DNA from: Escherichia coli
GTDB lineage: Bacteria > Pseudomonadota > Gammaproteobacteria > Enterobacterales > Enterobacteriaceae
Reading direction: 5' to 3' (one strand)
Assembly (NCBI RefSeq): GCF_044647545.1
Contig: NZ_CP172818.1
Length of the DNA: 64,000 bases
In this document: in pieces, positions 3,856 through 48,351 of the stretch
How positions within the stretch are numbered: position 1 is the first letter of the stretch
Layout: each line of letters begins with the position of its first letter
The notes under the pieces: model-generated
Database searches by the model: none
Told to the model about the DNA's origin: nothing
The model's input: the letters and a program-made list of their open reading frames with translations, nothing else
Position numbers and translations under genes: made by a program

Positions 3856-4550
<695 letters not shown>

Positions 4551-6015: not shown

Positions 6016-6099
6016 TTAATTTCGATTATTTTTCCCGGATGGAAAATTCTTAGAAACCGATCACATACAGCTGCATTTATTAAGGTTATCATCCGTTTC

Positions 6100-22455: not shown

Positions 22456-22548
22456 GGTTGCGATAATAAATCGCAGAGGAGGATGGTAATGTCCAGCGCA
22501 CGCGTTGTAAACGGGGAAAAACGGCGGTATTACAATAACGTTGTGAAA

Positions 22549-25418: not shown

Positions 25419-25433
25419 AGAACCACCTGACTA

Positions 25434-27928
25434 TTACTGGCAAATATAATTTCTACTTTCATCAATCTCTTTACCGAAGGTGATTGTGCATGAAAGTCCT
25501 TGTTGCTTATCAATTGCTACATTAACCGATGGCGGTACTTCATTGGTGCGAATAAATAACTGGCTTCCCTGGCCGACAACACCAATATTATGACCATGGA
25601 TATCATTGACTTCATAACCAAACGTTAATGGTTGCCCATCCGCTCTTAACGCTTTTATAAACCATGGCTTGCGCTGATCGGTATCAAAATTAACCAGTAC
25701 AACCGCGCCGCGATAAGGGGCGGCAATTTTCCGGTTGCCACGTAATTCTGCTTCGCTATCGCTTTGCGACACATCCAGCATCAGGTGATTTTCCCGATAA
25801 GGTGTCATTCCGTCGTATACCACCACTCCATTACGGTTTGTTGTGCGATATTTTTGCCCATTGACATAAGCATCTTTAATTCCTGGCGCATTCATTACAG
25901 CAAACGTTTCGGAAAGACGGTTCGCCAGATTAACGCCACCCGACCAGGCGACAATGCCCCCTGAAACACTGGCTCCAGCCTGTCGATAAGTACTCGACTG
26001 ACTATAACTGCCATTCACCGTTGCCACCGGCGCGTTCCAGGTTAAATTAGCTCCAGCTGTCGTTTCATTTCCCTGATGCTGATGACTCAGGTTGACCCCA
26101 TAGTTAAATTGATCCCGGCTTCCAACGGTTCCCGATAATCCCGTATTATTTGAGGCAAAACCCTGATCATCAAACGTCGTTGAGTTAGACATATATATTT
26201 GCCGACGAGGCGTCGTAGCGTCATCACCCCAATCAAAGGGAATCGATATAAAAATATTAAAACGTTTCTCTTCATGATGATTCTCGTCATAAGCCTGGCT
26301 TGCCGCGAGGGTATAGCTTATCCGTCGCAGGTTGTTGGAATAACTCAACTGATAATCCTTACTGCTGCCGCTACGCCCCCAGTAATCTCGCCATAACGTA
26401 CTTAAGGACACAGAACCCCAGCCTTCTGGCAATGACTGGCTCATATTGGCAGAAAAGCTATTTTTACGGCCAAAATCGTTCTGGTAATAATCGGCAATGT
26501 CATAGATATCGTTTTCATCACGGCGATATTTATCTTTATTGTTTGCCCAAACGTGATCGTTAAATGTCCGGTAATCACGCGACGAATAACGCCAGGCCGC
26601 CAGACCAAAACGCGTCGACGTTTGGCTCACAAATTTGTTGTAGGCAATTTGATAACTTTGCCCGTCAAACACATCGCCGTTGTCTTGTTTACTATGCGAC
26701 TTCGTGGCATCGACGGAAATGGCACCAATGCGTGTATTCCAGCCAGTCCCCAAAGTGAACGCGTAATAATTATTCGCGACCATCGATCCGCCATACAGCG
26801 TCAATAAGTTATTAAAACCATACTGATAACCCGCCTGAACAAAATCACTTTGTTTGCTCGCCCCTTCAATATGGCTACGACCTGCCGCAAAATCATATTT
26901 CGACACGCCGGGTTGCAGCATATTCGGCACCGCTGCATAAGGCACCAGATAGGTGGTTACCGAACCGTCCGCCTCTTTCACGCTGACATCAAGATCTGCT
27001 CCACCACCGGCCAACTGCAAATCTGTAATCGCAAACGGGCCAGGAGGAACCTCTTTCTGATAAACCACAAAACCGTTCTGTTCAATAGTTACCAGCGCGT
27101 TACTCTGAGCAATCCCCTGCACCCGTGGAGTAAAATTTTGTTTCGAGTTAGGCAACATCTGCATATCACGAAACAACCGCACACCGCTGAAGCGAACAGA
27201 ATCAAAAATATCGCTTGATGTGTACATATCACCCACGCGAAGCGTGCCGAGAAGTTGGGCAAATCCACGTTCCAGATACAGGGTATTGCTTTTCCACACC
27301 CCTGGATTGCTATTTGTTTTACTGAAACTGGCATCAGAATGCAGTTGCCACCCCAGTAAGTTTAACCCGCTGTTAAAACGTACATATGTACTCTTGCTAT
27401 TACCCGACGCTTTATAGTCGCTGTAATACTGACTCACATAATAAGAGGTATAAAACGCATTAATACCCCGCTCCCAGTTTTCCGGTGGAACATAGCCACT
27501 TTCCAGTTCTTCCACCCACGCCTGCGGGACACTGAAATCGAGACGAAAAACTCCGATATCCCAGGTATAGCTCCCCCCTGAACAAGTTGCTCAAATGTTA
27601 AACATTGCTTACCGCTGGCAAAGTTATCGGTATTAATGCCTAACCGCTTGATAATTTCCCTTGATATACATGTTTCTTGCAGGTTGTCTTTAACAATAAT
27701 CTCATATTTCCCGCGCCATTGCTTATTGACATAAATATCGATGTCATACTGCCCCGGCAAGGGTTGATTATCATCAAGACGAATATTTGCAACCTGCTGG
27801 TCTTTCATTCCACCTATCATAAAATGGGTATCAAAGGTTTCTTCAGCTGCATAAGCTTCAATGCCGAGCAATAACGCTACGATTGCTGATGCAAGTGGGG
27901 TCATTCTCAACATAGGCAGCTCCTGCAA
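25434..27928 (-). pseudogene. yehB: Outer-membrane fimbrial usher YehB, disrupted by a single-base frameshift in a homopolymer (or sequencing error)
   Basis: Two ORFs in different frames (27434..27928 N-terminal fragment, 25434..27515 remainder); frame switches at C6 run 27573-27578 (minus-strand G6); restoring one G gives continuous ...FEQLVQGG-SYTWDIGVFRLDFSVPQAWVEELESGY... Confidence 0.8.
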
Positions 27929-33480: not shown

Positions 33481-36400
33481 ATGAAACACTTTATCTATCA
33501 GGACGAAAAATCACATAAATTCTGGGCGGTGGAGCAGCAGGGAAACGAGTTGCATATCTGTTGGGGAAAAGTTGGCACCAAAGGGCAAAACCAGGTAAAA
33601 AGTTTTGCGGATGCTGCGGCGGCGGAAAAAGCGGAGCTGAAGCTGATTGCGGAGAAGGTGAAGAAGGGATATGTGGAGCAAGCGAAGGATAATTCTTTGC
33701 AACCTTCCCAAACGGTAACGGACTCTCTCAAGGTAGCGGACTTATCCACCATTATTCAGGAACAACCCTCTTTCGTAGCAGAAACCCGTGCGGCTGACAA
33801 AAATACAGACGTTATTTTACCGTGGCTGGCAAAAGATATTGCTGTCGTTTTTCCGCTTGAAGTCGTACCCACCACCTTAAGCCATCGCCGCTTTCCCGGA
33901 GATCCTGTTACACCTGTAGATAAATTAACCCAGTTACGTCGCTTAGCCTGTGGCGTGTCGCAACGGGATAACAAAACAGCTACATTTGACTTCAGCGCCT
34001 GTACTTTAGAGTGGCAAAACTTCATCGCTCAGGCGATCGATCTGATTAACAGCCCGAAAACGACAAAATTACCATCACCGGTAATGGCTGTACTCGCGGC
34101 ACTTGAACTGCACTGTACGAGATATAAAGAGCGTGAGGATGTTATGGATCAGATTATTCAGGAAGGCGGTCTGGAATATGCTACTGATGTAATAATACAT
34201 CTTCAACAAATATCTATTGAATGGGATTATGTCAACAATAATATTGTTTTCCTGTCGTCTGGCATTTCACCTGATTACTTGCAGCAATATTCCAGCTTTG
34301 AATTACGCCTACGTAAACATTTATCACTGGCGGAAGAGTCTCTCTGGCAAAAATGTGCACAAAAACTTATTGCCGCAGTTCCACATATTCCAGAATGGCG
34401 GCAACCATTAATTGCTTTGTTATTACCCGAAAAACCAGAAATTGCACATGAAATTGCCCAGCGTCTACTGGGGCAAAAGAAATTACCCTCGCTTGAGTGG
34501 CTAAAAATAGTGGCGACTGATGAGCACATTCTTGCCTCATTAGAAAAATATCACGAGCCATATGCCATTTTTGATGATTACTATTGTGGTGCGATATGGT
34601 CAGCCACCGTATTACAGGAGCAAGGTGTTGCAGCCCTGCCCCGATTTGCACCCTATGTCGCAAGTGACTACTGCGCCGATGTGTTGAGTCATATCAATCA
34701 TCCGTTCGCATTAACACTGCTTATACGTGTAGCCGGGCATACTAAACGCTGTCACGATCGAATGACGAAAGCCTGCGCTGCGTTCCCACACGCAGCACTG
34801 GCAGCACTGGCGGAACTTCTAGTGCAAAAAGAAGAGAATAGTTGGCGCATTATGCTAATGACGATGCTTATCTCGCAACCTACACTAGCAGAACAGGTCA
34901 TTCCCTGGCTTTCGACACCCGCAGTTGCAGTGCTGAAATCATGCCAGCAACAACTGAAACAGCCCTCAAACCATGCCAGTGCCGATCTACTGCCGGCCAT
35001 AGTAGTCTCCCCACCATGGCTTTCGAAAAAGAAAAAATCGCCGATTCCGGTGCTTGATTTAGCACCGCTCAACCTCGAATCCATATGCACAATAACCGAC
35101 ACAGAAGCTAAAGAGTTTCAAACTCATTGGGACTGGGAACCGCATAAGCCAGGTGAAGGTGCTAAAGATTTCCTTTACTCGCTGGGGTATCGCCGCTGGG
35201 ATTTTGACACATATAAATATATCGGCGCTTCTGACTCGGCAATTGACGCATGGGAACGTGAGGACTTCGCTACACTCATCCAAATGTTTAAAGCCCACCA
35301 TGCACCGTATCAGGGGGAGTGGCATCTCAACTCACTTCCCTTTTTACCTATGCAAAAAGCGATTAAACTATGGGAATTTCTCAGCAAAGAGCCGCATACC
35401 GCGGTAAAACCTGTCATGCTTTATTTGCGACTGGCAGGTATGAGTGGTTTTCTACACTCGTTTTCACGCTACCCTCAAGAAGGTTTTGCGGTTGCTAATT
35501 ATTTTGCCGCAACGGAACTGGCTCCTGCCGTCGCCCGCGCCTTTAACAAACTCAAAACTCTACGACAAGACGCCCGCACCTGGCTGCTGAAATATCCGGA
35601 ACATGCCATTACCGGCCTGTTGCCTGCGGCACTCGGCAAAGCCGGTGAATCCCAGGATAACGCCCGTGCCGCTTTACGTATGTTGATTGAAAATGGTTAT
35701 CCGTCATTACTGCAAGAAATCGCCCAGCGTTATAACCAGCCGGAAGTAACCGATGCGGTGAACGCTCTACTTGCGCTCGATCCCTTAGATAATCACCCGA
35801 CTAAAATCCCGACACTTCCGGCCTTTTATCAGCCATCGCTCTGGACGCGCCCGGTATTAAAAGCAAACGCCCAATCACTGCCAGATAGCGCCCTCTTCCA
35901 CCTCGGTGAAATGCTCCGCTTCCCTCAGGAAGATACGCTGTATCCGGGGTTATTACAGGTGAAAGACGCCTGTACTGCCGACTCACTGGCTGAGTTTGCC
36001 TGGGATCTGTTTACCGCCTGGCAGACCGCTGGCGTGCCGTCGAAAGAGAGCTGGGCGTTCACTGCATTAGGTGTTCTTGGCAACGGTGACACCGCCCGCA
36101 AACTGACGCCATTAATCCGCGCCTGGCCTGGCGAATCTCAGCATAAACGTGCCACCGTTGGGTTGGATATTCTCGCTGCTATCGGCAGCGATATCGCCCT
36201 GATGCAGCTTAACGGCATCGCCCAGAAACTGAAATTCAAAGCCTTACAGGAGCGGGCGAAAGAAAAAATTGCCGACATTGCCGAAAGTCGCGAACTCACA
36301 GTGGCAGAACTTGAAGATCGGTTAGCACCGGATCTCGGTCTGGATGATAACGGTTCGCTGCTGCTGGATTTCGGGCCACGGCAGTTCACCGTCAGCTTTG

Positions 36401-37269
36401 ATGAAACCTTAAAACCGTTTGTGCGTGATGCTTCCGGCAGCCGCCTGAAAGACTTGCCTAAACCGAACAAAAGCGATGATGAAACCCAAGCGAACGATGC
36501 AGTTAACCGCTACAAACTGTTGAAAAAAGATGCGCGTACCGTTGCCGCCCAGCAGGTAGCAAGGCTGGAATCCGCCATGTGCCTACGCCGCCACTGGTCG
36601 CCGGAAAACTTCCAGCTATTCCTGGTTGAGCATCCGCTGGTTCGCCACTTAACCCGCCGTCTGATTTGGGGCGTTTATAGCACCGAAAACGAGCTACTGG
36701 CCTGTTTCCGGGTGGCAGAAGATAACAGCTACAGCACCGCTGACGATGATCTTTTCACCCTGCCGGAAGGCGATATCTCTATTGGTATTCCTCACGTTCT
36801 GGAAATATCACCGACGGATGCCGCCGCCTTTGGTCAGCTTTTTGCCGACTACGAACTTTTACCGCCGTTCCGTCAGCTCGACCGCAACAGTTATGCCCTG
36901 ACTGAAGTCGAACGCAACGCCAGCGAACTAACCCGCTGGGCAGGCAGAAAATGCCCGAGCGGTCGGGTTATGGGGCTGTCGAATAAAGGCTGGGTGCGTG
37001 GTGAACCGCAGGACGGTGGCTGGATCGGCTGGATGATCAAACCTCTGGGCCGCTGGTCATTAATCATGGAAATCGATGAAGGATTTGCAGTTGGTATGTC
37101 GCCAGCCGAACTCAGTGCCGAGCAACTCTTAAGCAAGCTGTGGCTATGGGAAGGCAAAGCAGAAAGCTATGGCTGGGGGAGTCATTCAACACAGGAAGCG
37201 CAGTTCTCCGCACTCGATGACATCACCGCCAGCGAGTTGATTAACGATATTGAAGCCCTGTTTGAATAA
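33481..37269 (+). CDS. molR: Giant WGR-domain + DUF4132 protein MolR (intact form of the K-12 molR/yehG-yehH pseudogene)
   Basis: 1262 aa single ORF; N-terminal WGR-like segment (HKFWAVEQQGNELHICWGKVGTKGQ); remainder collinear with yehI. Confidence 0.85.
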   Translation: MKHFIYQDEKSHKFWAVEQQGNELHICWGKVGTKGQNQVKSFADAAAAEKAELKLIAEKVKKGYVEQAKDNSLQPSQTVTDSLKVADLSTIIQEQPSFVAETRAADKNTDVILPWLAKDIAVVFPLEVVPTTLSHRRFPGDPVTPVDKLTQLRRLACGVSQRDNKTATFDFSACTLEWQNFIAQAIDLINSPKTTKLPSPVMAVLAALELHCTRYKEREDVMDQIIQEGGLEYATDVIIHLQQISIEWDYVNNNIVFLSSGISPDYLQQYSSFELRLRKHLSLAEESLWQKCAQKLIAAVPHIPEWRQPLIALLLPEKPEIAHEIAQRLLGQKKLPSLEWLKIVATDEHILASLEKYHEPYAIFDDYYCGAIWSATVLQEQGVAALPRFAPYVASDYCADVLSHINHPFALTLLIRVAGHTKRCHDRMTKACAAFPHAALAALAELLVQKEENSWRIMLMTMLISQPTLAEQVIPWLSTPAVAVLKSCQQQLKQPSNHASADLLPAIVVSPPWLSKKKKSPIPVLDLAPLNLESICTITDTEAKEFQTHWDWEPHKPGEGAKDFLYSLGYRRWDFDTYKYIGASDSAIDAWEREDFATLIQMFKAHHAPYQGEWHLNSLPFLPMQKAIKLWEFLSKEPHTAVKPVMLYLRLAGMSGFLHSFSRYPQEGFAVANYFAATELAPAVARAFNKLKTLRQDARTWLLKYPEHAITGLLPAALGKAGESQDNARAALRMLIENGYPSLLQEIAQRYNQPEVTDAVNALLALDPLDNHPTKIPTLPAFYQPSLWTRPVLKANAQSLPDSALFHLGEMLRFPQEDTLYPGLLQVKDACTADSLAEFAWDLFTAWQTAGVPSKESWAFTALGVLGNGDTARKLTPLIRAWPGESQHKRATVGLDILAAIGSDIALMQLNGIAQKLKFKALQERAKEKIADIAESRELTVAELEDRLAPDLGLDDNGSLLLDFGPRQFTVSFDETLKPFVRDASGSRLKDLPKPNKSDDETQANDAVNRYKLLKKDARTVAAQQVARLESAMCLRRHWSPENFQLFLVEHPLVRHLTRRLIWGVYSTENELLACFRVAEDNSYSTADDDLFTLPEGDISIGIPHVLEISPTDAAAFGQLFADYELLPPFRQLDRNSYALTEVERNASELTRWAGRKCPSGRVMGLSNKGWVRGEPQDGGWIGWMIKPLGRWSLIMEIDEGFAVGMSPAELSAEQLLSKLWLWEGKAESYGWGSHSTQEAQFSALDDITASELINDIEALFE

Positions 37270-37278
37270 GGAAAGAAC

Positions 37279-40200
37279 ATGGACAAGGAATTACCGTGGC
37301 TGGCGGATAACGCCCAACTGGAACTGAAATATAAAAAAGGCAAAACACCACTCAGCCATCGCAATTGGCCGGGCGAACCGGTGCCTGTTATCACTGAAAA
37401 CCTCATCCAGACACTGGGTGATAAATTGCTACACATTGCTGAGAAGAAAAAAAACATTGTCTGGCGTTATGAAAATTTTTCACTGGAATGGCAGTCCGCC
37501 ATCACGCAGGCCATCAACTTGATCGGCGAGCACAAACCCTCAATTCCGGCCCGGACAATGGCGGCGCTAGCCTGTATCGCGCAAAATGATAGCCAACAGT
37601 TACTCGACGAAATCGTCCAACAAGAGGGACTGGAATATGCGACTGAAGTGGTGATTGCACGCCAGTTTATTGTACGGTGTTATGAGAGTGATCCTCTGGT
37701 AGTAACATTGCAGTATCAGAAGGAGGACTATGGCTATGGCTATGGCTATGGTTATCGCTCAGAAACCTATAACGAATTCGATCTCCGACTGCGTAAGCAT
37801 CTCTCTCTGGCAGAGGAAAGCTGCTGGCAGCGTTGCGCCGACAAACTCATTGCCGCACTGCCAGGACTACCCCAAGTTCGCCGTCCTTTTATTGCACTCA
37901 TCCTCCCGGAAAAACCAGAAATCGCCAATGAGTTGGTAGGCCTTGAATGCCCGTGGACTCATTTTCATTCTAAGGAGTGGTTAAAAGTTGTTGCTACTGA
38001 CCACAGGGCAGTGGGAAAACTCGAACGCTACTGGAGCCAGGATATATTTAGCGATCGCGAAGCCAGCTACATGTCGCATGAAAACCACTTCGGCTACGCG
38101 GCCTGCGCCGCCCTTTTGCGCGAACAAGGAATTGCAGCCGTTCCACGCCTCGCGATGTATGCCCATAAAGAAGATTGCGGTAGCCTGCTGGTAAAAATTA
38201 ACCATCCGCAGGTCATCCGCACCCTGCTGTTAGTTGCTGATAAAAACAAACCCAGCCTGCAACGTGTGGCTAAATACAGTAAAAACTTCCCCCATGCGAC
38301 GCTTGCCGCACTGGCAGAGCTTCTGGCGTTAAAAGAACCGCCTGCACGCCCTGGTTATCCAATCATCGAAGACAAAAAGCTGCCTGCACAGCAAAAAGCT
38401 CGAGATGAATACTGGCGTACGCTGTTACAAACGCTGATGGCATCGCAGCCACAACTGGCAGAAGAGGTGATGCCGTGGTTAAGTACTCAAGCCCAGGCAG
38501 TGCTGGATAGTTATTTATCGGCACCGCCCAAAACGGTTATTGATAGCACCGATAACATCCAAATGCCTGAAATCCTCGTTTCACCACCGTGGCGTAGTAA
38601 GAAAAAAATGACAGTTCCACGTCTTGATTTGGCACCGTTCGAATTAACGCCGCAAGTTTACTGGCAACCAGGCGAACGAGAGAGGCTTGCCGCCACTGAG
38701 TCTGCCCGTTATTTCAGCACGGAATCTCTTGCGGAACGCATGGAACAAAAAAGTGGACGAGTTGTATTACAGGAGCTGGGTTTTGGAGATGATGTATGGC
38801 TGTTTTTGAATTATATACTCCCCGGAAAACTGGATGCTGCACGCAATTCACTCATTGTTCAGTGGCATTACTACCCAGGGCGGGTTGAAGAGATCATGAA
38901 TGGCTGGAGCTCCCCGGAAGCTCAATTAGCAGAACAGGCGCTTCGCAACGGTCACGTAGAAGTGTTAATTAACATATGGGAAAATGACAGCTACTCACGC
39001 TATCGTCGGGAAAAGAGTATCTGGAACCTGTATTTATTGGCGCAGTTGCCGCGTGAGATGGCTTTGACTTTCTGGCTACGTATCAATGAGAAAAAGCATC
39101 TGTCTGCGGGAGAGGACTATTTTCTCAGTATCTTCGGATTGGATGCTCTACCAGGTCTGCTGTTGGCTTTTTCACATCGTCCAAAAGAAACATTTCCATT
39201 AATTTTAAATTTCGGCGCAACAGAACTGGCCCTGCCCGTTGCCCGCGTCTGGCGACGTTTCGCGGCGCAGCGTGATCTGGCTCGCCAGTGGATTTTACAT
39301 TGGTCGGAACATACAGCTACTGCACTTATCCCTCTTGTCTTCACCAAATCCAGCGATAATAGCGAAGCTGCATTACTTGCCCTGCGTTTACTTTACGAAC
39401 AGGGACATGGCGAGTTACTGCAAACCGTGGCAAACCGCTGGCAGCGTACAGATGTATGGCCTGCCCTGGAGCAATTACTTAAACAGAGTCCAATAGAGAT
39501 TTACCCGACACGCATTCCAAAAGCCCCTGATTTCTGGCAGCCGGCAATGTGGTCCAGACCGAGACTTATCACGAATAATCAACCTGTTACTGATGATGCT
39601 CTGGAAATTATCGGCGAAATGCTGCGCTTTACCCAGGGCGGACGTTTTTATTGTGGGCTGGAACAACTGAAAACGTTCTGCCAGCCACAAACGCTGGCCG
39701 CTTTTGCCTGGGATCTCTTTACCGCGTGGCAACAAGTTGGCGCCCCCGCAAAAGACAACTGGGCATTTCTGGCGTTAAGTCTCTTCGGTGACGAAAGCAC
39801 GGCTCGGGATCTGACAACACAGATCCTCGCCTGGCCACAGGAAGGCAAATCTGCCCGTGCCGTCAGTGGCCTGAACATACTTACCCTGATGAATAATGAT
39901 ATGGCGCTGATACAGCTGCATCATATATCGCAACGGGCGAAATCCCGTCCCTTACGTGATAACGCGGCGGAATTTCTTCAGGTGGTCGCAGAAAATCGTG
40001 GACTAAGCCAGGAAGAGTTAGCGGACAGATTAGTCCCAACACTGGGCCTGGATGATCCGCAGGCGTTGATATTTGATTTTGGTCCCCGGCAGTTTACCGT
40101 TCGCTTCGATGAAAACCTCAACCCGGTTATCTTTGATCAGCAAAACGTTCGCCAGAAAAGCATTCCCCGGTTGCGCGCCGATGACGATCAGCTGAAAGCG

Positions 40201-40923
40201 CCCGAGGCTCTGGCCCGACTTAAAGGGCTAAAAAAAGATGCCACTCAGGTGAGCAAAAACCTGCTCCCGCGTCTTGAAACAGCCCTACGCACCACCCGAC
40301 GCTGGTCGCTGGCAGATTTTCATTCTCTGTTTGTTAATCATCCCTTTACCCGTCTGGTTACCCAGCGATTAATATGGGCGGTTTATCCAGCAAATGAACC
40401 GCGTCGTTTACTCAACGCCTTTCGTGTGGCCGCAGAGGGGGAATTCTGCAACGCACAAGATGAGCCAATTGACCTGCCTGCCGATGCCCTGATTGGCATT
40501 GCCCACCCGTTAGAAATGACAGCAGAAATGCGCAGTGAATTTGCACAGCTTTTTGCCGATTACGAAATTATGCCGCCTTTTCGCCAGTTGACGCGGCGCA
40601 CAGTGCTGCTCACGCCTGACGAGTCAGCCAGTAATAGTTTGAATCGCTGGGAAGGTAAATCTGCTACCGTTGGGCAACTTATGGGAATGCGATACAAAGG
40701 CTGGGAGTCAGGCTATGAGAACGCATTTGTCTATGACCTGGGCGAGTACCGGCTGGTCCTTAAGTTTTCATCCGGTTTTAACCACTACAATGTTGATAGC
40801 AAAGCGCTAATGAGCTTCCGTTCTCTTCATGTATACCGTGACAATAAATCTGTCACTTTTGCCGAACTTGATGTGTTTGATTTGAGTGAAGCGTTAAGCG
40901 CACCCGACGTCATTTTCCATTAA
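37279..40923 (+). CDS. yehI: Giant DUF4132 protein YehI, tandem paralog of MolR lacking the WGR domain
   Basis: 1214 aa; long collinear similarity to MolR (DLRLRKHLSLAEES.WQ.CA.KLIAA.P ... FPHA.LAALAELL ... FGPRQFTV.FDE); internal GYGYGYGY repeat. Confidence 0.85.
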   Translation: MDKELPWLADNAQLELKYKKGKTPLSHRNWPGEPVPVITENLIQTLGDKLLHIAEKKKNIVWRYENFSLEWQSAITQAINLIGEHKPSIPARTMAALACIAQNDSQQLLDEIVQQEGLEYATEVVIARQFIVRCYESDPLVVTLQYQKEDYGYGYGYGYRSETYNEFDLRLRKHLSLAEESCWQRCADKLIAALPGLPQVRRPFIALILPEKPEIANELVGLECPWTHFHSKEWLKVVATDHRAVGKLERYWSQDIFSDREASYMSHENHFGYAACAALLREQGIAAVPRLAMYAHKEDCGSLLVKINHPQVIRTLLLVADKNKPSLQRVAKYSKNFPHATLAALAELLALKEPPARPGYPIIEDKKLPAQQKARDEYWRTLLQTLMASQPQLAEEVMPWLSTQAQAVLDSYLSAPPKTVIDSTDNIQMPEILVSPPWRSKKKMTVPRLDLAPFELTPQVYWQPGERERLAATESARYFSTESLAERMEQKSGRVVLQELGFGDDVWLFLNYILPGKLDAARNSLIVQWHYYPGRVEEIMNGWSSPEAQLAEQALRNGHVEVLINIWENDSYSRYRREKSIWNLYLLAQLPREMALTFWLRINEKKHLSAGEDYFLSIFGLDALPGLLLAFSHRPKETFPLILNFGATELALPVARVWRRFAAQRDLARQWILHWSEHTATALIPLVFTKSSDNSEAALLALRLLYEQGHGELLQTVANRWQRTDVWPALEQLLKQSPIEIYPTRIPKAPDFWQPAMWSRPRLITNNQPVTDDALEIIGEMLRFTQGGRFYCGLEQLKTFCQPQTLAAFAWDLFTAWQQVGAPAKDNWAFLALSLFGDESTARDLTTQILAWPQEGKSARAVSGLNILTLMNNDMALIQLHHISQRAKSRPLRDNAAEFLQVVAENRGLSQEELADRLVPTLGLDDPQALIFDFGPRQFTVRFDENLNPVIFDQQNVRQKSIPRLRADDDQLKAPEALARLKGLKKDATQVSKNLLPRLETALRTTRRWSLADFHSLFVNHPFTRLVTQRLIWAVYPANEPRRLLNAFRVAAEGEFCNAQDEPIDLPADALIGIAHPLEMTAEMRSEFAQLFADYEIMPPFRQLTRRTVLLTPDESASNSLNRWEGKSATVGQLMGMRYKGWESGYENAFVYDLGEYRLVLKFSSGFNHYNVDSKALMSFRSLHVYRDNKSVTFAELDVFDLSEALSAPDVIFH

Positions 40924-40983
40924 AACACAGCGGGCAGTGATGCGACTGCCCGTTATTAACACGACCTGCCACCGGGGGAAGCG

Positions 40984-41304
40984 ATGATCGTGCAAAAAGA
41001 GCTGGTCACTATTTACGATTATGAGGCCCCTGTACCTGAAGAGCCGTTTTCCTTCAGACTTGAGATCCATAAATGCTCTGAATTATTTACAGGTTCCATC
41101 TACCGGCTGGAGCGATTCCGGCTACATCCAACATTTCATCAACGTGATCGAGAGGATATCGACCCGCTAATAAATGATGCGTTGATTTATATAAGAGATG
41201 AGTTTATTGATGAGCGAAAATTACGGGGCGAATCACCAGAAACGGTAATAGCCATTTTTAATCGTGAACTACAGAATATATTCAACCAAGAAATAGAAAA
41301 ATAG
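40984..41304 (+). CDS. yehK: Small uncharacterized protein YehK
   Basis: 106 aa; no recognisable domain; AT-rich codon usage unlike neighbours; hairpin terminator immediately downstream (~41309-41336). Confidence 0.7.
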   Translation: MIVQKELVTIYDYEAPVPEEPFSFRLEIHKCSELFTGSIYRLERFRLHPTFHQRDREDIDPLINDALIYIRDEFIDERKLRGESPETVIAIFNRELQNIFNQEIEK

Positions 41305-41469
41305 CTTTATTAAAGGGGGAAACGGTATTCCCCTTTAGATGTGTTTTATTTTCCCGTTACTCAAAAAAATAAATAAACCGAAAAAAAGCCACTAATAGCT
41401 CCAGTACGGAAATAAGCAGGGTTAATTTTTTGTCAGTGTGTCCATCCCTTCTCTTTATAAAGGAGGGCA

Positions 41470-41560
41470 ACACCACTTTTTACCTACCCCCCCCTTTATT
41501 TTTTTTATTCGAACCATTTCCCCCCCGAAGGCCCCCCCCCCCCCCCCCCAACCCTTGAAA
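41470..41560. other. Anomalous low-complexity stretch with poly-C (17 nt), poly-T and C-rich runs; probable sequencing/assembly artefact
   Basis: Direct reading: ...tacctacccccccctttattttttttattcgaaccatttcccccccgaaggcccccccccccccccccaaccc...; same character as the 3856-4550 anomaly. Confidence 0.55.
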
Positions 41561-41704
41561 TGGGTTCGATCCGGCGCAACGTCCCAACAGTCAGGATTAT
41601 AAATCTCATTATCTTAATTGCAACGGGGTCCACCGATGGTTATAATTCGTTCGTTGGAACACGATGTTGCACAGGCCGTGGTGTTAGGCCTGAAAGTAGT
41701 AAAT

Positions 41705-41738
41705 AAAAGAACCTGCCTCACCAGCAGGTTTTTTTATT
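41705..41738 (+). terminator. Rho-independent terminator-like hairpin upstream of yehL
   Basis: AACCTGC-CTCACCA-GCAGGTT followed by T7; ~110 bp upstream of yehL start. Confidence 0.55.
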
Positions 41739-41846
41739 TACTGTGATCTGTTTCCCAGATATTTTCCGCTCAAACAACTAATGCGCCAAACATTTATTGC
41801 GCGTAAAATATCGTTTATTTCATTAATACATTTCAGGGATGAATAT

Positions 41847-42935
41847 ATGTCACCGCAGAATAATCATCTGCAGCGTCCGCCTGTCGCTGTGTTATACGCC
41901 GATGAACTGGCAAAATTAAAACAAAATGATCACGCACCTTGCCCGCCCGGTTGGCAGTTAAGTTTGCCTGCGGCCCGTGCTTTTATCCTTGGCGATAGCG
42001 CGCAAAATATTAGCCGTAAAGTGGTGATTAGTCCCTCCGCTGTCGAACGCATGTTAGTCACTCTTGCCACCGGGCGCGGTTTGATGTTGGTGGGGGAACC
42101 TGGCACCGCAAAATCTCTCCTGTCTGAATTACTGGCAACCGCTATTAGCGGCGATGCCGGGTTAACCATCCAGGGCGGCGCATCTACCACTGAAGATCAA
42201 ATCAAGTACGGCTGGAACTACGCTCTGCTTATCAACCATGGTCCGTCAACGGAAGCACTGGTCCCTGCCCCGCTTTACCAGGGAATGCGCGACGGCAAAA
42301 TCGTCCGTTTTGAAGAGATAACGCGTACACCGCTGGAAGTACAAGACTGTCTGTTAGGTATGCTTTCTGACAGGGTAATGACGGTGCCGGAACTCACTGG
42401 TGAAGCCAGTCAGCTCTATGCGCGAGAAGGCTTTAATATTATTGCCACTGCCAATACCCGCGATCGCGGCGTCAATGAAATGAGCGCTGCGCTAAAGCGT
42501 CGATTCGATTTTGAAACGGTCTTTCCGATTATGGATTTCGCCCAGGAACTGGAACTGGTCGCCAGTGCTTCGGCGCGTTTATTGGCCCATAGTGGCATTC
42601 CGCATAAAGTGCCTGACGCGGTACTGGAGTTACTGGTACGCACCTTCCGCGATCTGCGTGCCAACGGCGAAAAGAAAACGTCAATGGATACACTGACAGC
42701 GATTATGTCCACCGCTGAAGCCGTGAACGTAGCCCACGCTGTGGGTGTCCGCGCCTGGTTTTTAGCGAATCGCGCAGGTGAGCCAGCCGATCTGGTGGAC
42801 TGTATTGCCGGAACCATCGTTAAAGATAACGAAGAAGATCGCGCTCGTCTGCGCCGTTACTTCGAACAGCGTGTCGCCACACATAAAGAAGCTCACTGGC
42901 AGGCTTATTATCAAGCCCGCCACCGCCTGCCGTGA
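41847..42935 (+). CDS. yehL: MoxR-family AAA+ ATPase YehL
   Basis: 362 aa from MSPQNNHLQRPP; Walker A LVGEPGTAKS; Walker B region IVRFEEITRTPLEVQDCLLGML; MoxR-like C-terminal helical region. Confidence 0.88.
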   Translation: MSPQNNHLQRPPVAVLYADELAKLKQNDHAPCPPGWQLSLPAARAFILGDSAQNISRKVVISPSAVERMLVTLATGRGLMLVGEPGTAKSLLSELLATAISGDAGLTIQGGASTTEDQIKYGWNYALLINHGPSTEALVPAPLYQGMRDGKIVRFEEITRTPLEVQDCLLGMLSDRVMTVPELTGEASQLYAREGFNIIATANTRDRGVNEMSAALKRRFDFETVFPIMDFAQELELVASASARLLAHSGIPHKVPDAVLELLVRTFRDLRANGEKKTSMDTLTAIMSTAEAVNVAHAVGVRAWFLANRAGEPADLVDCIAGTIVKDNEEDRARLRRYFEQRVATHKEAHWQAYYQARHRLP

Positions 42936-42945
42936 GGAAAGATGC

Positions 42946-45225
42946 ATGAGCGAGCCGTTAATTGTCGGCATCCGGCATCATAGCCCGGCCTGCGCCCGGC
43001 TGGTGAAATCGTTAATCGAAAGCCAGCGGCCACGATACGTGTTGATTGAAGGCCCGGCTGATTATAATGACCGGGTAGACGAACTGTTTTTAGCCCACCA
43101 GCTTCCGGTAGCTATTTACAGTTATTGCCAGTATCAGGACGGTGCAGCCCCCGGGCGTGGTGCCTGGACGCCATTTGCTGAATTTTCGCCGGAGTGGCAG
43201 GCGCTACAAGCCGCTCGTCGTATTCAGGCACAAACTTACTTCATCGATTTGCCTTGCTGGGCGCAGAGTGAAGAAGAGGACGATTCGCCTGATACGCATG
43301 AGGAAAGCCAGACCTTGCTGCTGCATGCCACCCGCATGGATAACAGCGACACCCTGTGGGATCACTTGTTCGAAGATGAAAGCCAGCAAACTGCATTACC
43401 CTCTGCACTGGCGCACTATTTTGCCCAACTGCGGGGCGACTCCCCCGGAGATGCTCTCAATCGTCAGCGCGAAGCCTTTATGGCCCGCTGGATTGCATGG
43501 GCGATGCAGCAAAATAATGGCGACGTGTTAGTTGTCTGCGGTGGCTGGCACGCTCCGGCACTGGCAAAAATGTGGCGCGAATGCCCGCAAGAAATTAACA
43601 AGCCAGAATTGCCGTCGCTGGCAGATGCCGTTACAGGTTGCTATCTCACGCCATACAGTGAAAAGCGCCTTGATGTGCTGTCAGGATACCTTTCAGGAAT
43701 GCCTGCCCCGGTCTGGCAAAACTGGTGCTGGCGGTGGGGCTTGCAGCAGGCAGGTGAACAACTACTGAAAACGGTTCTTACCCGTTTGCGCCAGCACCAC
43801 TTGCCTGCTTCAACAGCGGATATGGCTGCCGCTCATCTGCATGCGATGGCACTGGCACAGTTGCGCGGTCATACACTACCGTTACGCACTGACTGGCTGG
43901 ATGCTATAGCCGGCTCGCTGATCAAAGAAGCCCTGAACGCGCCGTTGCCGTGGAGCTATCGCGGCGTTATTCATCCCGATACCGATCCGATTCTGCTAAC
44001 GTTGATAGACACATTAGCGGGTGACGGATTCGGTAAACTTGCCCCCTCGACGCCACAGCCACCTCTGCCAAAAGATGTCACCTGCGAACTGGAACGTACC
44101 GGAATCTCTTTTCCGGCGGAGCTTACCTTAAATCGCTTTACCCCCGATGGACTGGCGCAAAGTCAGGTGTTACATCGGCTGGTAATACTGGAGATCCCAG
44201 GGGTTGTGCGCCAGCAGGGAAGTACACTGACACTTGCAGGCAACGGTGAAGAACGCTGGAAATTAACCCGCCCGCTTAGCCAACATGCGGCATTAATTGA
44301 GGCCGCCTGCTTTGGTGCCACACTCCAGGAAGCCGCACGCCATAAATTAGAAGCCGATATGCTGGACGCGGGTGGAATCGGCAGTATCACCACATGTCTT
44401 AGCCAGGCGGCGTTAGCGGGTCTGGCGTCCTTCAGTCAACAATTACTGGAGCAACTTACATTATTAATCGCCCAGGAAAATCAGTTTGCCGAAATGGGCC
44501 AGGCGCTGGAAGTGCTATACGCCTTATGGCGGCTGGATGAAATTAGCGGTATGCAAGGCGCGCAGATATTACAGACGACGTTATGCGCAGCTATCGATCG
44601 CACACTCTGGCTGTGTGAATCCAACGGCAGACCGGATGAAAAGGAGTTTCACGCTCACCTGCATAGCTGGCAAGCGCTTTGCCATATCCTGCGCGATCTA
44701 CATAGCGGCGTTAATTTACCCGGCGTTTCGCTTTCTGCGGCGGTAGCCTTACTGGAGCGCCGCAGTCAGGCGATTCATGCCCCGGCGCTGGATCGCGGCG
44801 CGGCTCTTGGCGCACTAATGCGTCTGGAACATCCCAACGCCAGTGCCGAAGCGGCGCTGACGATGCTGGCGCAGTTATCCCCGGCACAATCCGGCGAGGC
44901 GCTGCACGGTTTGCTGGCATTAGCCCGTCATCAACTGGCCTGTCAGCCGGCATTTATCGCCGGTTTCAGTAGTCATTTAAATCAACTGAGTGACGACGAT
45001 TTTATTAACGCCCTGCCCGATTTACGCGCGGCGATGGCCTGGCTACCACCACGAGAACGCGGGACGCTGGCGCATCAGGTGCTTGAGCATTACCAGCTCG
45101 CACAGCTTCCCATTTCAGCGCTGCAAATGCCGTTGCATTGTCCACCGCAAGCCATTGCACATCATCAACAACTCGAACAGCAGGCACTGGCATCGCTGCA
45201 ACACTGGGGAGTTTTCCATGTCTGA
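42946..45225 (+). CDS. yehM: Large uncharacterized protein YehM
   Basis: 759 aa from MSEPLIVGIRHHSPA (ATG at 42946, 10 bp after yehL stop); no domain I can assign; stop overlaps yehP start. Confidence 0.8.
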   Translation: MSEPLIVGIRHHSPACARLVKSLIESQRPRYVLIEGPADYNDRVDELFLAHQLPVAIYSYCQYQDGAAPGRGAWTPFAEFSPEWQALQAARRIQAQTYFIDLPCWAQSEEEDDSPDTHEESQTLLLHATRMDNSDTLWDHLFEDESQQTALPSALAHYFAQLRGDSPGDALNRQREAFMARWIAWAMQQNNGDVLVVCGGWHAPALAKMWRECPQEINKPELPSLADAVTGCYLTPYSEKRLDVLSGYLSGMPAPVWQNWCWRWGLQQAGEQLLKTVLTRLRQHHLPASTADMAAAHLHAMALAQLRGHTLPLRTDWLDAIAGSLIKEALNAPLPWSYRGVIHPDTDPILLTLIDTLAGDGFGKLAPSTPQPPLPKDVTCELERTGISFPAELTLNRFTPDGLAQSQVLHRLVILEIPGVVRQQGSTLTLAGNGEERWKLTRPLSQHAALIEAACFGATLQEAARHKLEADMLDAGGIGSITTCLSQAALAGLASFSQQLLEQLTLLIAQENQFAEMGQALEVLYALWRLDEISGMQGAQILQTTLCAAIDRTLWLCESNGRPDEKEFHAHLHSWQALCHILRDLHSGVNLPGVSLSAAVALLERRSQAIHAPALDRGAALGALMRLEHPNASAEAALTMLAQLSPAQSGEALHGLLALARHQLACQPAFIAGFSSHLNQLSDDDFINALPDLRAAMAWLPPRERGTLAHQVLEHYQLAQLPISALQMPLHCPPQAIAHHQQLEQQALASLQHWGVFHV

Positions 45226-46354
45226 ACTGAACGATCTTCTGACCACCCGTGAGCTACAACGCTGGCGATTAATTCTTGGCGAAGCGGCAGAAACGACGCT
45301 TTGTGGGCTGGATGACAACGCCCGGCAGATAGACCACGCGCTGGAGTGGCTGTACGGGCGCGATCCTGAACGGCTCCAGCGTGGTGAACGCTCCGGTGGA
45401 TTAGGTGGCTCAAATCTCACCACCCCTGAGTGGATCAACAGTATTCACACGCTGTTTCCGCAACAGGTGATTGAACGGCTGGAAAGCGATGCCGTACTGC
45501 GCTACGGCATTGAAGATGTGGTGACAAATCTCGACGTGCTGGAACGTATGCAGCCTTCGGAAAGCCTGCTACGCGCCGTTTTGCACACCAAACATCTGAT
45601 GAATCCCGAAGTACTGGCTGCCGCCCGCCGGATAGTACGCCAGGTTGTGGAAGAAATTATGGCGCGACTGGCAAAGGAAGTTCGTCAGGCTTTTTCTGGT
45701 GTCCGCGATCGCCGTCGCCGCTCATTTATTCCACTGGCGCGAAACTTTGATTTCAAAAGTACTCTGCGCGCCAACCTGCAACACTGGCACCCGCAACACG
45801 GCAAGTTGTATATCGAATCCCCCCGCTTTAACAGCCGCATTAAACGCCAAAGCGAACAATGGCAACTGGTCTTACTGGTTGATCAAAGCGGATCAATGGT
45901 GGACTCGGTGATCCACTCAGCGGTGATGGCGGCCTGTTTATGGCAGTTACCCGGTATTCGTACCCATCTGGTGGCGTTTGACACCAGCGTGGTTGATCTC
46001 ACGGCAGACGTTGCCGATCCGGTAGAGTTATTAATGAAAGTGCAATTAGGCGGCGGAACCAATATCGCCAGTGCCATGGAATATGGTCGGCAACTTATTG
46101 AACAACCAGCGAAAAGCGTCATCATCCTCGTGAGCGATTTTTACGAAGGGGGTTCATCATCATTACTGACGCATCAGGTGAAAAAGTGTGTCCAGAGCGG
46201 CATCAAAGTGCTGGGACTGGCGGCGCTCGATAGCACCGCAACACCTTGCTATGACCACGATACGGCCCAGGCGCTAGTTAATGTCGGCGCACAAATAGCC
46301 GCCATGACACCGGGCGAGCTGGCGGCCTGGCTTGCGGAGAATCTTCAGTCATGA
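45218..46354 (+). CDS. yehP: von Willebrand factor A (VWA) domain protein YehP
   Basis: 378 aa; C-terminal VWA with MIDAS DxSxS (LVLLVDQSGSM), further ...GGGTN... and ILVSDFYEGG; start ATG overlaps yehM stop (ATGTCTGA). Confidence 0.88.
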   Translation: MSELNDLLTTRELQRWRLILGEAAETTLCGLDDNARQIDHALEWLYGRDPERLQRGERSGGLGGSNLTTPEWINSIHTLFPQQVIERLESDAVLRYGIEDVVTNLDVLERMQPSESLLRAVLHTKHLMNPEVLAAARRIVRQVVEEIMARLAKEVRQAFSGVRDRRRRSFIPLARNFDFKSTLRANLQHWHPQHGKLYIESPRFNSRIKRQSEQWQLVLLVDQSGSMVDSVIHSAVMAACLWQLPGIRTHLVAFDTSVVDLTADVADPVELLMKVQLGGGTNIASAMEYGRQLIEQPAKSVIILVSDFYEGGSSSLLTHQVKKCVQSGIKVLGLAALDSTATPCYDHDTAQALVNVGAQIAAMTPGELAAWLAENLQS

Positions 46355-48351
46355 ATTCACTACGTCCGGAATTATTAGAACTGACGCCGCAGGCCCTGAC
46401 GGCGTTAAGCAATGCCGGTTTTGTTAAACGCAGTCTTAAGGAACTGGAAAATGGCAACGTCCCGGAAATCAGCCATAAGAACGGCGCTTTAATCGCCACC
46501 TTCAGTGACGGTGTCCGTACCCAGCTGGCGAACGGTCAGGCACTGAAAGAGGCTCAATGCAGCTGCGGGGCCAGCGGCATGTGCCGCCATCGCGTGATGC
46601 TGGTTTTAAGTTATCAGCGACTTTGCGCCACCACCCAGCCTACGGAAAAAGAAGAAGAGTGGGATCCGGCAATCTGGCTAGAAGAACTGGCTACCCTTCC
46701 CGATGCCACCCGCAAACGCGCGCAGGCGCTGGTCGCTAAAGGCATCACCATTGAGTTGTTCTGTACGCCGGGCGAAATTCCCTCTGCCCGCTTACCGATG
46801 AGCGATGTACGTTTTTATTCCCGCAGCAGCATTCGTTTCGCACGCTGTGATTGTATTGAAGGAACACTTTGCGAACATGTTGTGCTGGCAGTACAGGCCT
46901 TTGTCCAGGCCAAAGCGCAGCAAGCAGAATTTAACCATTTAATCTGGCAGATGCGCAGCGAACACGTCACATCATCTGACGATCCGTTTGCCAGCGAAGA
47001 GGGCAACGCGTGTCGTCAATATGTTCAGCAACTAAGCCAGGCATTATGGCTGAGCGGCATCAGCCAGCCGCTTATTCATTACGAGGCCGCTTTCAGCCGC
47101 GCGCAGCAAGCGGCGGAACGCTGCAACTGGCGCTGGGTAAGTGAATCACTACGACAGCTACGGGCAAGCGTTGATGCCTTCCACGCCCGCGCCAGTCACT
47201 ATCATGCCGGAGAATGCTTACGTCAGCTTGCGGCATTAAACAGTCGATTAAATTGCGCACAAGAGATGGCGCGGCGCGACAGTGTTGGTGAAGTTCCTCC
47301 TGTGCCGTGGCGCACGGTCGTTGGCGCTGGCATTGCCGGAGAAGCAAAGCTTGATCATCTGCGGCTGGTGTCTTTAGGTATGCGTTGCTGGCAGGATATT
47401 GAGCAGTATGGTTTACGCATCTGGTTCACCGATCCCGACACCGGCAGTATTTTGCATCTTTCGCGTAGTTGGCCGAGAAGCGAACAGGAAAATTCACCGG
47501 CAGCGACGCGTCGGCTGTTTAGTTTTCTGGCTGGCGCACTGGCAGGTGGGCAAATTGTTTCACAAGCAGCAAAACGCAGTGCCGATGGCGAACTGCTATT
47601 AGCTACCCGCAACCGCTTGAGTAGTGTTGTGCCGCTGTCGCCAGACGCCTGGCAAATGTTGAGCGCGCCATTGCGCCAGCCGGGCATTGTGGCTTTGCGG
47701 GAATATTTACGCCAGCGTCCCCCCGCCTGCATACGGCCTCTTAATCAGGTGGATAACTTATTTATTCTGCCAGTCGCTGAGTGTATTTCACTCGGTTGGG
47801 ATAGCAGCCGCCAGACACTGGATGCGCAGGTAATCAGCGGCGAAGGTGAAGATAACGTGCTGACATTATCCCTACCAGCCTCTGCCTGTTCGCCCTTTGC
47901 TGTTGAACGCATGGCGGCGCTTTTGCAACAAACAGACGACCCCGTGAGTCTGGTTTCTGGCTTTGTCAGCTTTGTAGAGGGGCAATTGACACTGGAACCA
48001 CGGGTGATGATGACAAAAAACCGCGCCTGGGCGCTGGACGCAGAAACTGCGCCTGTGGCACCGCTACCTTCTGCCAGCGTTTTGCCTGTGCCGTCTACCG
48101 CTCATCAGTTGCTGATGCGCTGCCAGGCGTTACTTATTCAACTGCTCCATAACGGCTGGCGCTATCAGGAACAGAGTGCTATTGGTCAGGCAGAGTTGCT
48201 GGCGAATGACCTCACCGCGGTGGGTTTTTATCGGCTGGCACATGTGTTGGCACAATTTCGTAATACAGAAAGCGAGGCACGGGTAGAAGCAATGAATAAC
48301 GGTGTTTTGATTTGCGAACAATTATTCCCCATGCTTCAGCAACAAGGATGA
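46351..48351 (+). CDS. yehQ: SWIM zinc-finger domain protein YehQ
   Basis: 666 aa as ORF; two CxC...CxH SWIM-like motifs (CSCGASGMCRHRVM and CDCIEGTLCEHVVLAV); start overlaps yehP stop (ATGA). Confidence 0.85.
   Translation: MNSLRPELLELTPQALTALSNAGFVKRSLKELENGNVPEISHKNGALIATFSDGVRTQLANGQALKEAQCSCGASGMCRHRVMLVLSYQRLCATTQPTEKEEEWDPAIWLEELATLPDATRKRAQALVAKGITIELFCTPGEIPSARLPMSDVRFYSRSSIRFARCDCIEGTLCEHVVLAVQAFVQAKAQQAEFNHLIWQMRSEHVTSSDDPFASEEGNACRQYVQQLSQALWLSGISQPLIHYEAAFSRAQQAAERCNWRWVSESLRQLRASVDAFHARASHYHAGECLRQLAALNSRLNCAQEMARRDSVGEVPPVPWRTVVGAGIAGEAKLDHLRLVSLGMRCWQDIEQYGLRIWFTDPDTGSILHLSRSWPRSEQENSPAATRRLFSFLAGALAGGQIVSQAAKRSADGELLLATRNRLSSVVPLSPDAWQMLSAPLRQPGIVALREYLRQRPPACIRPLNQVDNLFILPVAECISLGWDSSRQTLDAQVISGEGEDNVLTLSLPASACSPFAVERMAALLQQTDDPVSLVSGFVSFVEGQLTLEPRVMMTKNRAWALDAETAPVAPLPSASVLPVPSTAHQLLMRCQALLIQLLHNGWRYQEQSAIGQAELLANDLTAVGFYRLAHVLAQFRNTESEARVEAMNNGVLICEQLFPMLQQQG

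What the first reader, a model, noticed from the sequence alone, without database searches (positions are those of the whole stretch)
41705..41738. Orphan terminator-like hairpin upstream of yehL; possible sRNA 3' end or insulation of yehLMPQ from molR-yehI-yehK
A strong intrinsic-terminator structure (7-bp GC-rich stem AACCTGC/GCAGGTT plus T7) lies ~110 bp upstream of yehL and ~400 bp after yehK, which has its own hairpin at ~41309-41336. Two terminators in one spacer suggest yehLMPQ is transcribed separately from molR-yehI-yehK, or that an unannotated small RNA ends here. Interpretation is limited by the adjacent anomalous sequence.
Basis: inference. Interest (0 to 1): 0.35.

Follow-up and report, generated by a model that had tools for sequence, protein, structure and literature searches.

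The report
Terminator of the OrzP antitoxin sRNA
The hairpin is the transcription terminator of Orz, an already described ~85-nt small RNA that keeps the small membrane toxin ZorO of E. coli switched off, so it is real but ordinary; the odd sequence beside it is the garbled toxin gene.

Summary
The hairpin is real: stem 41710-41716/41724-41730, 7-nt loop, T-run to 41735, dG -13.8 kcal/mol, z = -5.9. It is not orphan. Rfam family RF02083 (OrzO-P antitoxin) matches 41660-41735 (+) end to end at 98.9 bits (gathering score 60), and the hairpin forms the 3' end of that match. A TTGCAA-17-TATAAT promoter at 41618-41646 predicts an ~83-nt sRNA starting at G41653. Positions +9 to +11 read ACG, the OrzP type. 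This is the antitoxin of the zor-orz type I toxin-antitoxin locus between yehK and yehL, described by Fozo 2010, Wen 2014 and an mSystems 2024 paper. It is present in 5228 of 5426 complete E. coli genomes but not annotated in RefSeq. The toxin gene zor lies divergently on the minus strand. The "adjacent anomalous sequence" (41334-41553) is that toxin ORF plus most of its 5' UTR. All 98 differences from an otherwise identical genome over 12 kb fall inside this patch, as homopolymer smears. In the window as given, the ORF is frameshifted and the Orz target site is lost. This is most likely a sequence artefact. A second garbled patch (3906-4544) covers the ParD/ParE locus. Insulation of yehL is at most a side effect. 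Already known; low interest.

The parts
41618..41646 (+). orz promoter: -35 TTGCAA (41618-41623), 17-nt spacer, -10 TATAAT (41641-41646)
   Evidence: 10 of 12 consensus matches. These are the hexamers reported as conserved in >99% of orz loci (PMC11264685, Table 3). They are invariant in 9 aligned copies.
41653..41735 (+). orz antitoxin sRNA gene of OrzP type (V1 at +9..+11 = ACG, 41661-41663), ~83 nt; the 5' ~20 nt form the toxin-mRNA pairing domain
   Evidence: Rfam RF02083 matches 41660-41735 at 98.9 bits, E 8.6e-17, full model 1-76. The TSS at G41653 is inferred from the -10 position and from the V1 numbering in PMC3919570. The length agrees with the ~85-nt northern bands (PMC2887945). Fold -30.9 kcal/mol, z = -3.86.
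41710..41735 (+). The finding itself: the intrinsic terminator of orz (7-bp stem, 7-nt loop, U-tract)
   Evidence: It corresponds to the terminal helix of the Rfam model. It is invariant across orz variants.
41596..41623 (-). zor toxin promoter: -35 TTGCAA (41623-41618, the same palindromic hexamer as the orz -35), 16-nt spacer, -10 TATAAT (41601-41596)
   Evidence: Same hexamers as in PMC11264685, Table 3.
41446..41588 (-). zor 5' UTR. The TSS is inferred at 41588. Only the first 35 nt (41588-41554) are intact; the rest, including the Orz target site, is garbled and about 30 nt short.
   Evidence: In the nearest genome (L004) a TSS at this base gives the published 174-nt UTR (PMC5397157). There the Orz target lies 73-92 nt upstream of the ATG, matching PMC2887945. 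The window version is shown.
41357..41445 (-). zor toxin ORF remnant. The ATG is at 41445-41443. As given it reads MDTLTKN* because one base is missing; the downstream frame still reads ...KKLTLLISVLELLVAFFRFIYFFE*.
   Evidence: Intact relatives encode MDTLTQKLTVLIAVLELLVALLRLIDLLK, which is ZorO.
41310..41338 (.). Hairpin between the convergent yehK and zor; it belongs to the zor unit and is the probable zor terminator
   Evidence: It is present once per zor copy and absent from orz-only K-12.
41334..41553 (.).
   Evidence: All differences from FDAARGOS_497 across window 36000-48000 fall here. In 41334-41475, 20 of 22 substitutions copy a neighbouring base.

Best explanation
The hairpin is the Rho-independent terminator of orz, the small-RNA antitoxin of the zor-orz type I toxin-antitoxin locus that sits between yehK and yehL in most E. 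coli. A near-consensus sigma-70 promoter (41618-41646) starts transcription at about G41653. The hairpin and U-tract end it at about 41735, giving an ~83-nt RNA. The toxin gene zor (29-aa membrane peptide, 174-nt 5' UTR) is transcribed divergently from a promoter that uses the same palindromic -35 hexamer. [quoted passage not shown] According to the published work, this triggers RNase III-dependent cleavage and blocks the exposed region needed for translation, so the toxin is not made. The anatomy, the family membership and the pairing in intact relatives are shown here. The TSS and the 3' end are inferred. The mechanism is taken from the literature on EDL933. In the window as given the toxin half is unreadable, most probably because of a sequence artefact.
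For: Rfam RF02083 OrzO-P matches 41660-41735 (+) at 98.9 bits against a gathering score of 60, E 8.6e-17, across the full model, and the hairpin is its terminal helix. It is the only copy in the window.

The promoter hexamers TTGCAA and TATAAT occur on both strands, exactly as published (PMC11264685, Table 3).

V1 = ACG at +9..+11 identifies the OrzP type (PMC3919570, section 19).

The location between yehI/yehK and yehL is as published (PMC2887945).

The nearest genome is 100% identical over the whole orz gene and encodes an intact ZorO. Its Orz 5' end pairs with the zor UTR at 19 of 20 positions; the computed duplex, which extends to Orz 1-30, is -40.3 kcal/mol.

A TSS at the predicted base gives the published 174-nt UTR.

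In nine orz copies the promoter and terminator are invariant, while the pairing domain varies, as expected for target discrimination.

ortherns show ~85-nt RNAs in EDL933 (PMC2887945) and in MG1655 (PMC11264685).
Against: There is no expression data for this strain, so the TSS and 3' end are inferred. The terminator stem never varies, so covariation gives no independent support for the helix. In the window as given the partner toxin is frameshifted, its RBS is altered (AAGGAG to AAAGAG) and the Orz target site is gone; the best duplex is only -16.7 kcal/mol. Taken literally, this orz would have nothing to repress at this locus.
Confidence: 0.95

Rival explanations
1. The hairpin is a stand-alone insulator. 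It exists to stop read-through from molR-yehI-yehK, so that yehLMPQ is a separate transcription unit and no RNA of its own ends there.
For: The hairpin lies between two co-oriented gene sets. In K-12, where the zor-side hairpin is absent, it is the only strong intrinsic terminator between yehK and yehL. Any + strand polymerase arriving from upstream would meet it.
Against: A 10/12 consensus promoter sits 64 nt upstream of the stem, and the stretch between them matches a curated sRNA family end to end. The RNA has been seen on northerns (PMC2887945, PMC11264685). The hairpin is duplicated together with orz in two-copy strains, where the first copy is followed by zorP rather than yehL. Insulation can be a by-product but does not explain the element.
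Confidence: 0.03
2. In this strain orz is a true orphan antitoxin. The garbled toxin sequence is real, zor is dead, and Orz is kept for another role or is decaying.
For: Orz-only loci are common. About 30% of E. coli, including MG1655, keep an expressed orzP without zor (PMC11264685). In the window as given, zor is frameshifted and the target site is lost.
Against: Natural orz-only loci arise by a clean deletion that leaves 27-29 nt of the UTR (PMC11264685), not by 98 changes in 220 nt. The flanks are 100% identical to complete genomes over 5.3 kb upstream and 22.4 kb downstream. Of 22 substitutions, 20 copy a neighbouring base, and runs up to C18 appear. A second patch of the same kind covers the ParD/ParE locus. 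No complete E. coli genome carries this version; the best full-length match is 84% identical.
Confidence: 0.03
3. The hairpin is the terminator of a leader or attenuator that controls yehL, on the model of an amino-acid operon leader.
For: There are weak Rfam matches to the Thr, Trp and Phe leaders over 41595-41738 (25.1, 20.6 and 18.2 bits). The hairpin lies 110 nt upstream of yehL.
Against: All these matches fall far below the gathering scores (55, 41, 55) and rest on the generic terminator helix. The only + strand ORF running into the hairpin (41618-41746, TTG start) begins upstream of the predicted TSS at 41653. I did not check it for regulatory codon runs or look for an anti-terminator alternative. 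The same stretch scores 98.9 bits for OrzO-P.
Confidence: 0.01

Closest known systems
OrzO/OrzP antitoxin sRNAs of the zorO-orzO / zorP-orzP type I toxin-antitoxin locus of E. coli O157:H7 EDL933 (Rfam RF02083; Fozo 2010 PMC2887945; Wen 2014 PMC3919570; Wen 2017 PMC5397157)
   Same: The genomic site (yehK-yehL spacer) is the same. So are the promoter hexamers, the ~85-nt length, the terminator sequence and the divergent arrangement with a 29-aa toxin that has a 174-nt 5' UTR. The 5'-end pairing domain carries V1 = ACG, as in OrzP.
   Different: This locus is single-copy rather than tandem. The sRNA body differs from the OrzP-type copy examined here (second copy in STEC strain 2013C-3250, L001) at two positions, and from the OrzO-type copy at many more. 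In the nearest intact relative the OrzP-type sRNA is paired with a peptide of ZorO sequence (T3, not S3). The toxin half is garbled in the window.
OrzPmg, the orz-only locus of E. coli K-12 MG1655 (PMC11264685)
   Same: The same sRNA gene, promoter and terminator lie in the same spacer, 110 nt upstream of yehL.
   Different: K-12 lost zor and the zor-side hairpin by a clean deletion that left about 30 nt of the UTR. The window retains a full-length but corrupted zor region.
IstR-1/tisB and OhsC/shoB (divergently encoded type I antitoxins of E. coli)
   Same: In each case the antitoxin is encoded divergently from the toxin rather than antisense to it. A short stretch (18-21 nt) at the sRNA 5' end pairs far upstream in a long toxin 5' UTR (PMC3919570).
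   Different: The sequences are unrelated, and so are the toxins. tisB is under SOS control.
Canonical Rho-independent terminators
   Same: It has a GC-rich 7-bp stem, a 7-nt loop and a U-tract. An upstream A-tract makes it look bidirectional.
   Different: Nothing unusual. There is no known convergent transcript on the minus strand that would use the reverse orientation.

Membership tests
OrzO-P antitoxin sRNA (Rfam RF02083) / zor-orz type I TA | Sequence-plus-structure match to the curated covariance model above its gathering score | tested here: met
   98.9 bits against a gathering score of 60, E 8.6e-17, model positions 1-76 of 76, at 41660-41735 (+).
OrzO-P antitoxin sRNA (Rfam RF02083) / zor-orz type I TA | Own promoter with -35 TTGCAA and -10 TATAAT, and an intrinsic terminator giving an ~85-nt RNA | tested here: met
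   One search gives the promoter at 41618-41646. Searches give the terminator. The predicted RNA is 41653-41735, 83 nt. The hexamers match PMC11264685, Table 3; the size matches PMC2887945.
OrzO-P antitoxin sRNA (Rfam RF02083) / zor-orz type I TA | Chromosomal position in the yehI/yehK-yehL spacer | tested here: met
   The flanking ORFs are yehK (40984-41304) and yehL (from 41847). Position as published in PMC2887945.
OrzO-P antitoxin sRNA (Rfam RF02083) / zor-orz type I TA | Divergent gene for a 29-aa hydrophobic Zor toxin with a long (174-nt) 5' UTR | tested here: inconclusive
   The promoter, the TSS region and a recognisable ORF remnant are present. In the window as given the ORF is frameshifted (MDTLTKN*) and the UTR is garbled. 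Genomes identical in the flanks have an intact ZorO and a 174-nt UTR.
OrzO-P antitoxin sRNA (Rfam RF02083) / zor-orz type I TA | At least 15 continuous or 17 discontinuous nt of complementarity between the Orz 5' end and the zor 5' UTR | tested here: inconclusive
   This is not met in the window as given: the best duplex is -16.7 kcal/mol with no seed. It is met in the nearest relative with the identical Orz: 19 of 20 positions paired with one internal mismatch, 73-92 nt upstream of the ATG. The criterion comes from PMC3919570 and PMC11264685.
OrzO-P antitoxin sRNA (Rfam RF02083) / zor-orz type I TA | Orz expression neutralises Zor toxicity in an RNase III-dependent manner | not testable with these tools
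   This has been shown only for EDL933 zorO-orzO (PMC3919570).
Rho-independent terminator | A stable GC-rich stem-loop immediately followed by a U-tract, at the end of a transcription unit | tested here: met
   -13.8 kcal/mol, z = -5.9. Five T, then A, then TTT follow the stem. It lies at the 3' end of the Rfam match.
Amino-acid operon leaders (Thr RF00506, Trp RF00513, Phe RF01859) | Score at or above the gathering threshold, and a leader peptide with regulatory codons | tested here: not met
   The scores are 25.1, 20.6 and 18.2 bits against thresholds of 55, 41 and 55. The only + strand ORF running into the hairpin (41618-41746) starts upstream of the predicted Orz TSS; regulatory codons were not examined.

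The most novel reading that the evidence does not exclude
Orz may do more here than silence zor. Its promoter and terminator are invariant across strains. The gene persists, and is expressed, in the roughly 30% of E. coli that have lost zor. It always sits 110 nt upstream of yehL, in the same orientation. Orz could therefore act in trans on other mRNAs, or leakage through its terminator from the near-consensus orz promoter could set the expression level of yehLMPQ. A still more exotic reading is that the garbling of both toxin-antitoxin loci in this window is biological; I put that at about 0.02.
Probability: 0.15. Interest if true: 0.45.

Novelty: already known. Interest (0 to 1): 0.1.

Why it matters
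For the scan, this is a true positive that turns out to be a known element. It adds no new biology. Two practical points follow. First, the yehK-yehL spacer should be annotated as zor-orz. Second, the window contains non-natural, garbled stretches exactly at its two toxin-antitoxin loci. Any first-stage finding that rests on 3906-4544 or 41334-41553 should be distrusted.

Tried and rejected
Leader or attenuator reading: the permissive Rfam scan gave sub-threshold Thr, Trp and Phe leader hits and assorted miRNA and sRNA hits over the hairpin. All are generic terminator matches, so I rejected this.

Minus-strand reading: the reverse orientation also scores as terminator-like and gives a weak OrzO-P hit of 25 bits. 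No minus-strand gene runs into it, so I rejected this too.

Covariation support for the terminator: an alignment of nine orz copies, including the most divergent classes at 81-83% identity, shows an invariant stem. It says nothing either way.

Source of the garbled sequence: exact-sequence look-ups of two ORFs read from the patch found nothing in public assemblies. This is inconclusive.

Third non-matching stretch (24467-25441): I checked whether it was garbled as well. It is ordinary-looking sequence, a divergent yehA fimbrial allele rather than a smear.

Scan oddity: the consensus scan does not list the + strand terminator in MG1655. I infer that it extends the stem through the A/T tracts and then tests the wrong tail. 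This is a tool quirk, not biology.

Full report
**1. The observation**

The sequence at 41705-41738 reads AAAAG AACCTGC CTCACCA GCAGGTT TTTTTATT.
- The 7-bp stem is 41710-41716 / 41724-41730 and the loop is 7 nt.
- The T-run is 41729-41735; its first two T are part of the stem.
- As RNA it folds at -13.8 kcal/mol. Dinucleotide shuffles give -3.06 +/- 1.82, so z = -5.9, and none of 200 shuffles does as well.
- The consensus scan finds it on both strands.
- The 26-mer is unique in the window.
- The stated distances to yehK (stop at 41304) and yehL (ATG at 41847) are correct.

**2. What it is**

A permissive Rfam scan of 40800-42200 gave one strong hit. RF02083, the OrzO-P RNA antitoxin family, matches 41660-41735 on the + strand at 98.9 bits against a gathering score of 60. 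The E-value is 8.6e-17 and the match covers model positions 1-76 of 76. The finding's hairpin is the terminal helix of the model. It is the only such hit in the whole window at gathering thresholds.

Upstream, the scan reports a 10/12 sigma-70 promoter: TTGCAA, 17 nt, TATAAT at 41618-41646. That places the start at about G41653 and predicts an RNA of about 83 nt.

With that start, positions +9 to +11 (41661-41663) read ACG. Wen et al. define a V1 region at those positions, with GAA in OrzO and ACG in OrzP (PMC3919570, section 19). This is therefore an OrzP-type sRNA.

Fozo et al. found the locus "between yehI and yehL" in EDL933. They mapped the starts by primer extension and saw ~85-nt transcripts (PMC2887945). 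Size and position both agree with the prediction here.

**3. The rest of the locus**

On the minus strand the scan finds TTGCAA, 16 nt, TATAAT at 41623-41596. This is the zor toxin promoter. Its -35 is the same palindromic hexamer, 41618-41623, that serves orz.

The nearest complete genome is FDAARGOS_497 (locus L004).
- The minus strand encodes MDTLTQKLTVLIAVLELLVALLRLIDLLK, which is ZorO.
- A start at the base equivalent to window 41588 gives exactly the published 174-nt 5' UTR (PMC5397157).
- The first 20 nt of the identical Orz pair with that UTR at 19 positions, with one internal mismatch. The site lies 73-92 nt upstream of the ATG, as described in PMC2887945.
- This satisfies the criterion of 17 nt of discontinuous pairing from PMC3919570.

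It is missing from K-12, which has yehK but no zor. It belongs to the zor unit.

**4. The "adjacent anomalous sequence"**

Window 36000-48000 differs from FDAARGOS_497 at 98 aligned positions, and every one lies in 41334-41553. From 41554 to 64000 the two are 100% identical over 22,447 nt.
- The patch covers the zor ORF and its UTR from +36 onward.
- Identity falls along the + strand from about 85% to 0-40% in 25-nt bins, then returns abruptly to 100%.
- In the alignable part, 20 of 22 substitutions copy a neighbouring base.
- Runs of C18, C8 and T8 appear, and 33 nt are lost in net.

As given, zor reads MDTLTKN*. The RBS AAGGAG has become AAAGAG, and the Orz target is gone; the best duplex is -16.7 against -40.3 kcal/mol. 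None of the 5426 complete genomes has this version.

This is not how natural orz-only loci look. Those arise from a clean deletion that leaves 27-29 nt of the UTR (PMC11264685). I conclude that the patch is a sequence artefact. The finding itself lies in clean sequence.

**5. Mechanism**

Three things are shown here: the anatomy, family membership, and pairing in intact relatives. The TSS and the 3' end are inferred.

The following comes from the literature. Orz pairs through its 5' end with the zor 5' UTR. Repression needs RNase III but not Hfq (PMC3919570). The target region is exposed after processing and is needed for efficient translation (PMC5397157).

The hairpin has two jobs: to end the sRNA, and probably to stabilise it. 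Wen et al. could not detect 3'-truncated OrzO (PMC3919570, section 17).

**6. Distribution and annotation**

The 128-nt orz region is found in 5228 of 5426 complete E. coli genomes, at 7062 places and up to four per genome. No annotated feature lies under the match in any listed record.

MG1655 has the orz-only form. This was published as OrzPmg, with a northern blot (PMC11264685).

In nine aligned copies the promoter hexamers and the terminator are invariant, while the pairing domain varies: GGAACACGA, GGTACGAAA, GAGATGCCA, GGGGCGCCA. That fits target discrimination between paralogous loci.

**7. Rivals**

- Pure insulator. This fails because a promoter and a curated sRNA body precede the hairpin, and because the hairpin is duplicated with orz ahead of zorP in tandem loci. 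Insulation of yehL, or controlled read-through into it, remains a possible side function that I could not test.
- yehL leader. This rests only on sub-threshold hits.
- True orphan antitoxin in this strain. This requires the garbled patch to be real, which the error pattern and a second garbled patch argue against.

**8. Verdict**

The feature is real and was correctly sensed as an sRNA 3' end, but it is already known. It is the OrzP-type antitoxin of zor-orz. Interest is low.

Noticed in passing
window 41334-41553: A garbled patch covers the zor toxin ORF and most of its 5' UTR. It holds 98 differences from a genome that is otherwise identical over 12 kb. The errors smear toward neighbouring bases, with runs of C18, C8 and T8 and a net loss of 33 nt. 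Identity decays along the + strand and then returns abruptly to 100% at 41554.
   Followed up: yes
window 3906-4544: A second garbled patch of the same kind has runs of G27, A28, A18 and A14. It covers the upstream region, the ParD antitoxin and the ParE/RelE toxin of a type II toxin-antitoxin locus, annotated in FDAARGOS_497 at L005 4714-5308. It ends just before the ParE stop codon. Both garbled patches in the window sit on toxin-antitoxin loci. I cannot explain this; it suggests a technical or deliberate cause rather than biology.
   Followed up: partly
window 41618-41623: The divergent zor and orz promoters use the same palindromic -35 hexamer, TTGCAA, read on opposite strands. RNA polymerase binding at the two promoters should therefore be mutually exclusive. 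A term search of the 2024 paper found no discussion of this.
   Followed up: partly
L003 1500-1690; L009 (NC_000913.3) 3846-3985: K-12 MG1655 carries an intact orz gene with promoter and terminator but no zor. Neither orz nor zor is annotated in the RefSeq records inspected. Earlier papers described MG1655 as lacking the locus; the 2024 mSystems paper corrected this and named the RNA OrzPmg.
   Followed up: yes
window 24467-25441: The yehA-like fimbrial subunit gene is a strongly divergent allele compared with FDAARGOS_497, while the flanks are identical. The sequence looks natural rather than garbled, consistent with allelic replacement of a fimbrial protein.
   Followed up: partly
window 6098-6187 (+): The CyaR/RyeE sRNA is present (Rfam RF00112, 86.8 bits). 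A 4-nt difference from FDAARGOS_497 lies at 6170-6173, inside the match.
   Followed up: no
window 62190-62270 (-) and 22361-22457 (-): The Peptidase-S11 RNA motif (RF03039, 72.8 bits) lies near pbpG. The TPP riboswitch (RF00059, 71.2 bits) lies upstream of thiM. Both are expected, known elements.
   Followed up: no
L001 1500-2700; L007: Two-copy strains carry a tandem zor-orz unit of about 610 nt. Each unit has its own zor-side hairpin, toxin ORF, shared -35, orz and orz terminator. The copies differ mainly in the Orz pairing domain and in the matching UTR site.
   Followed up: partly
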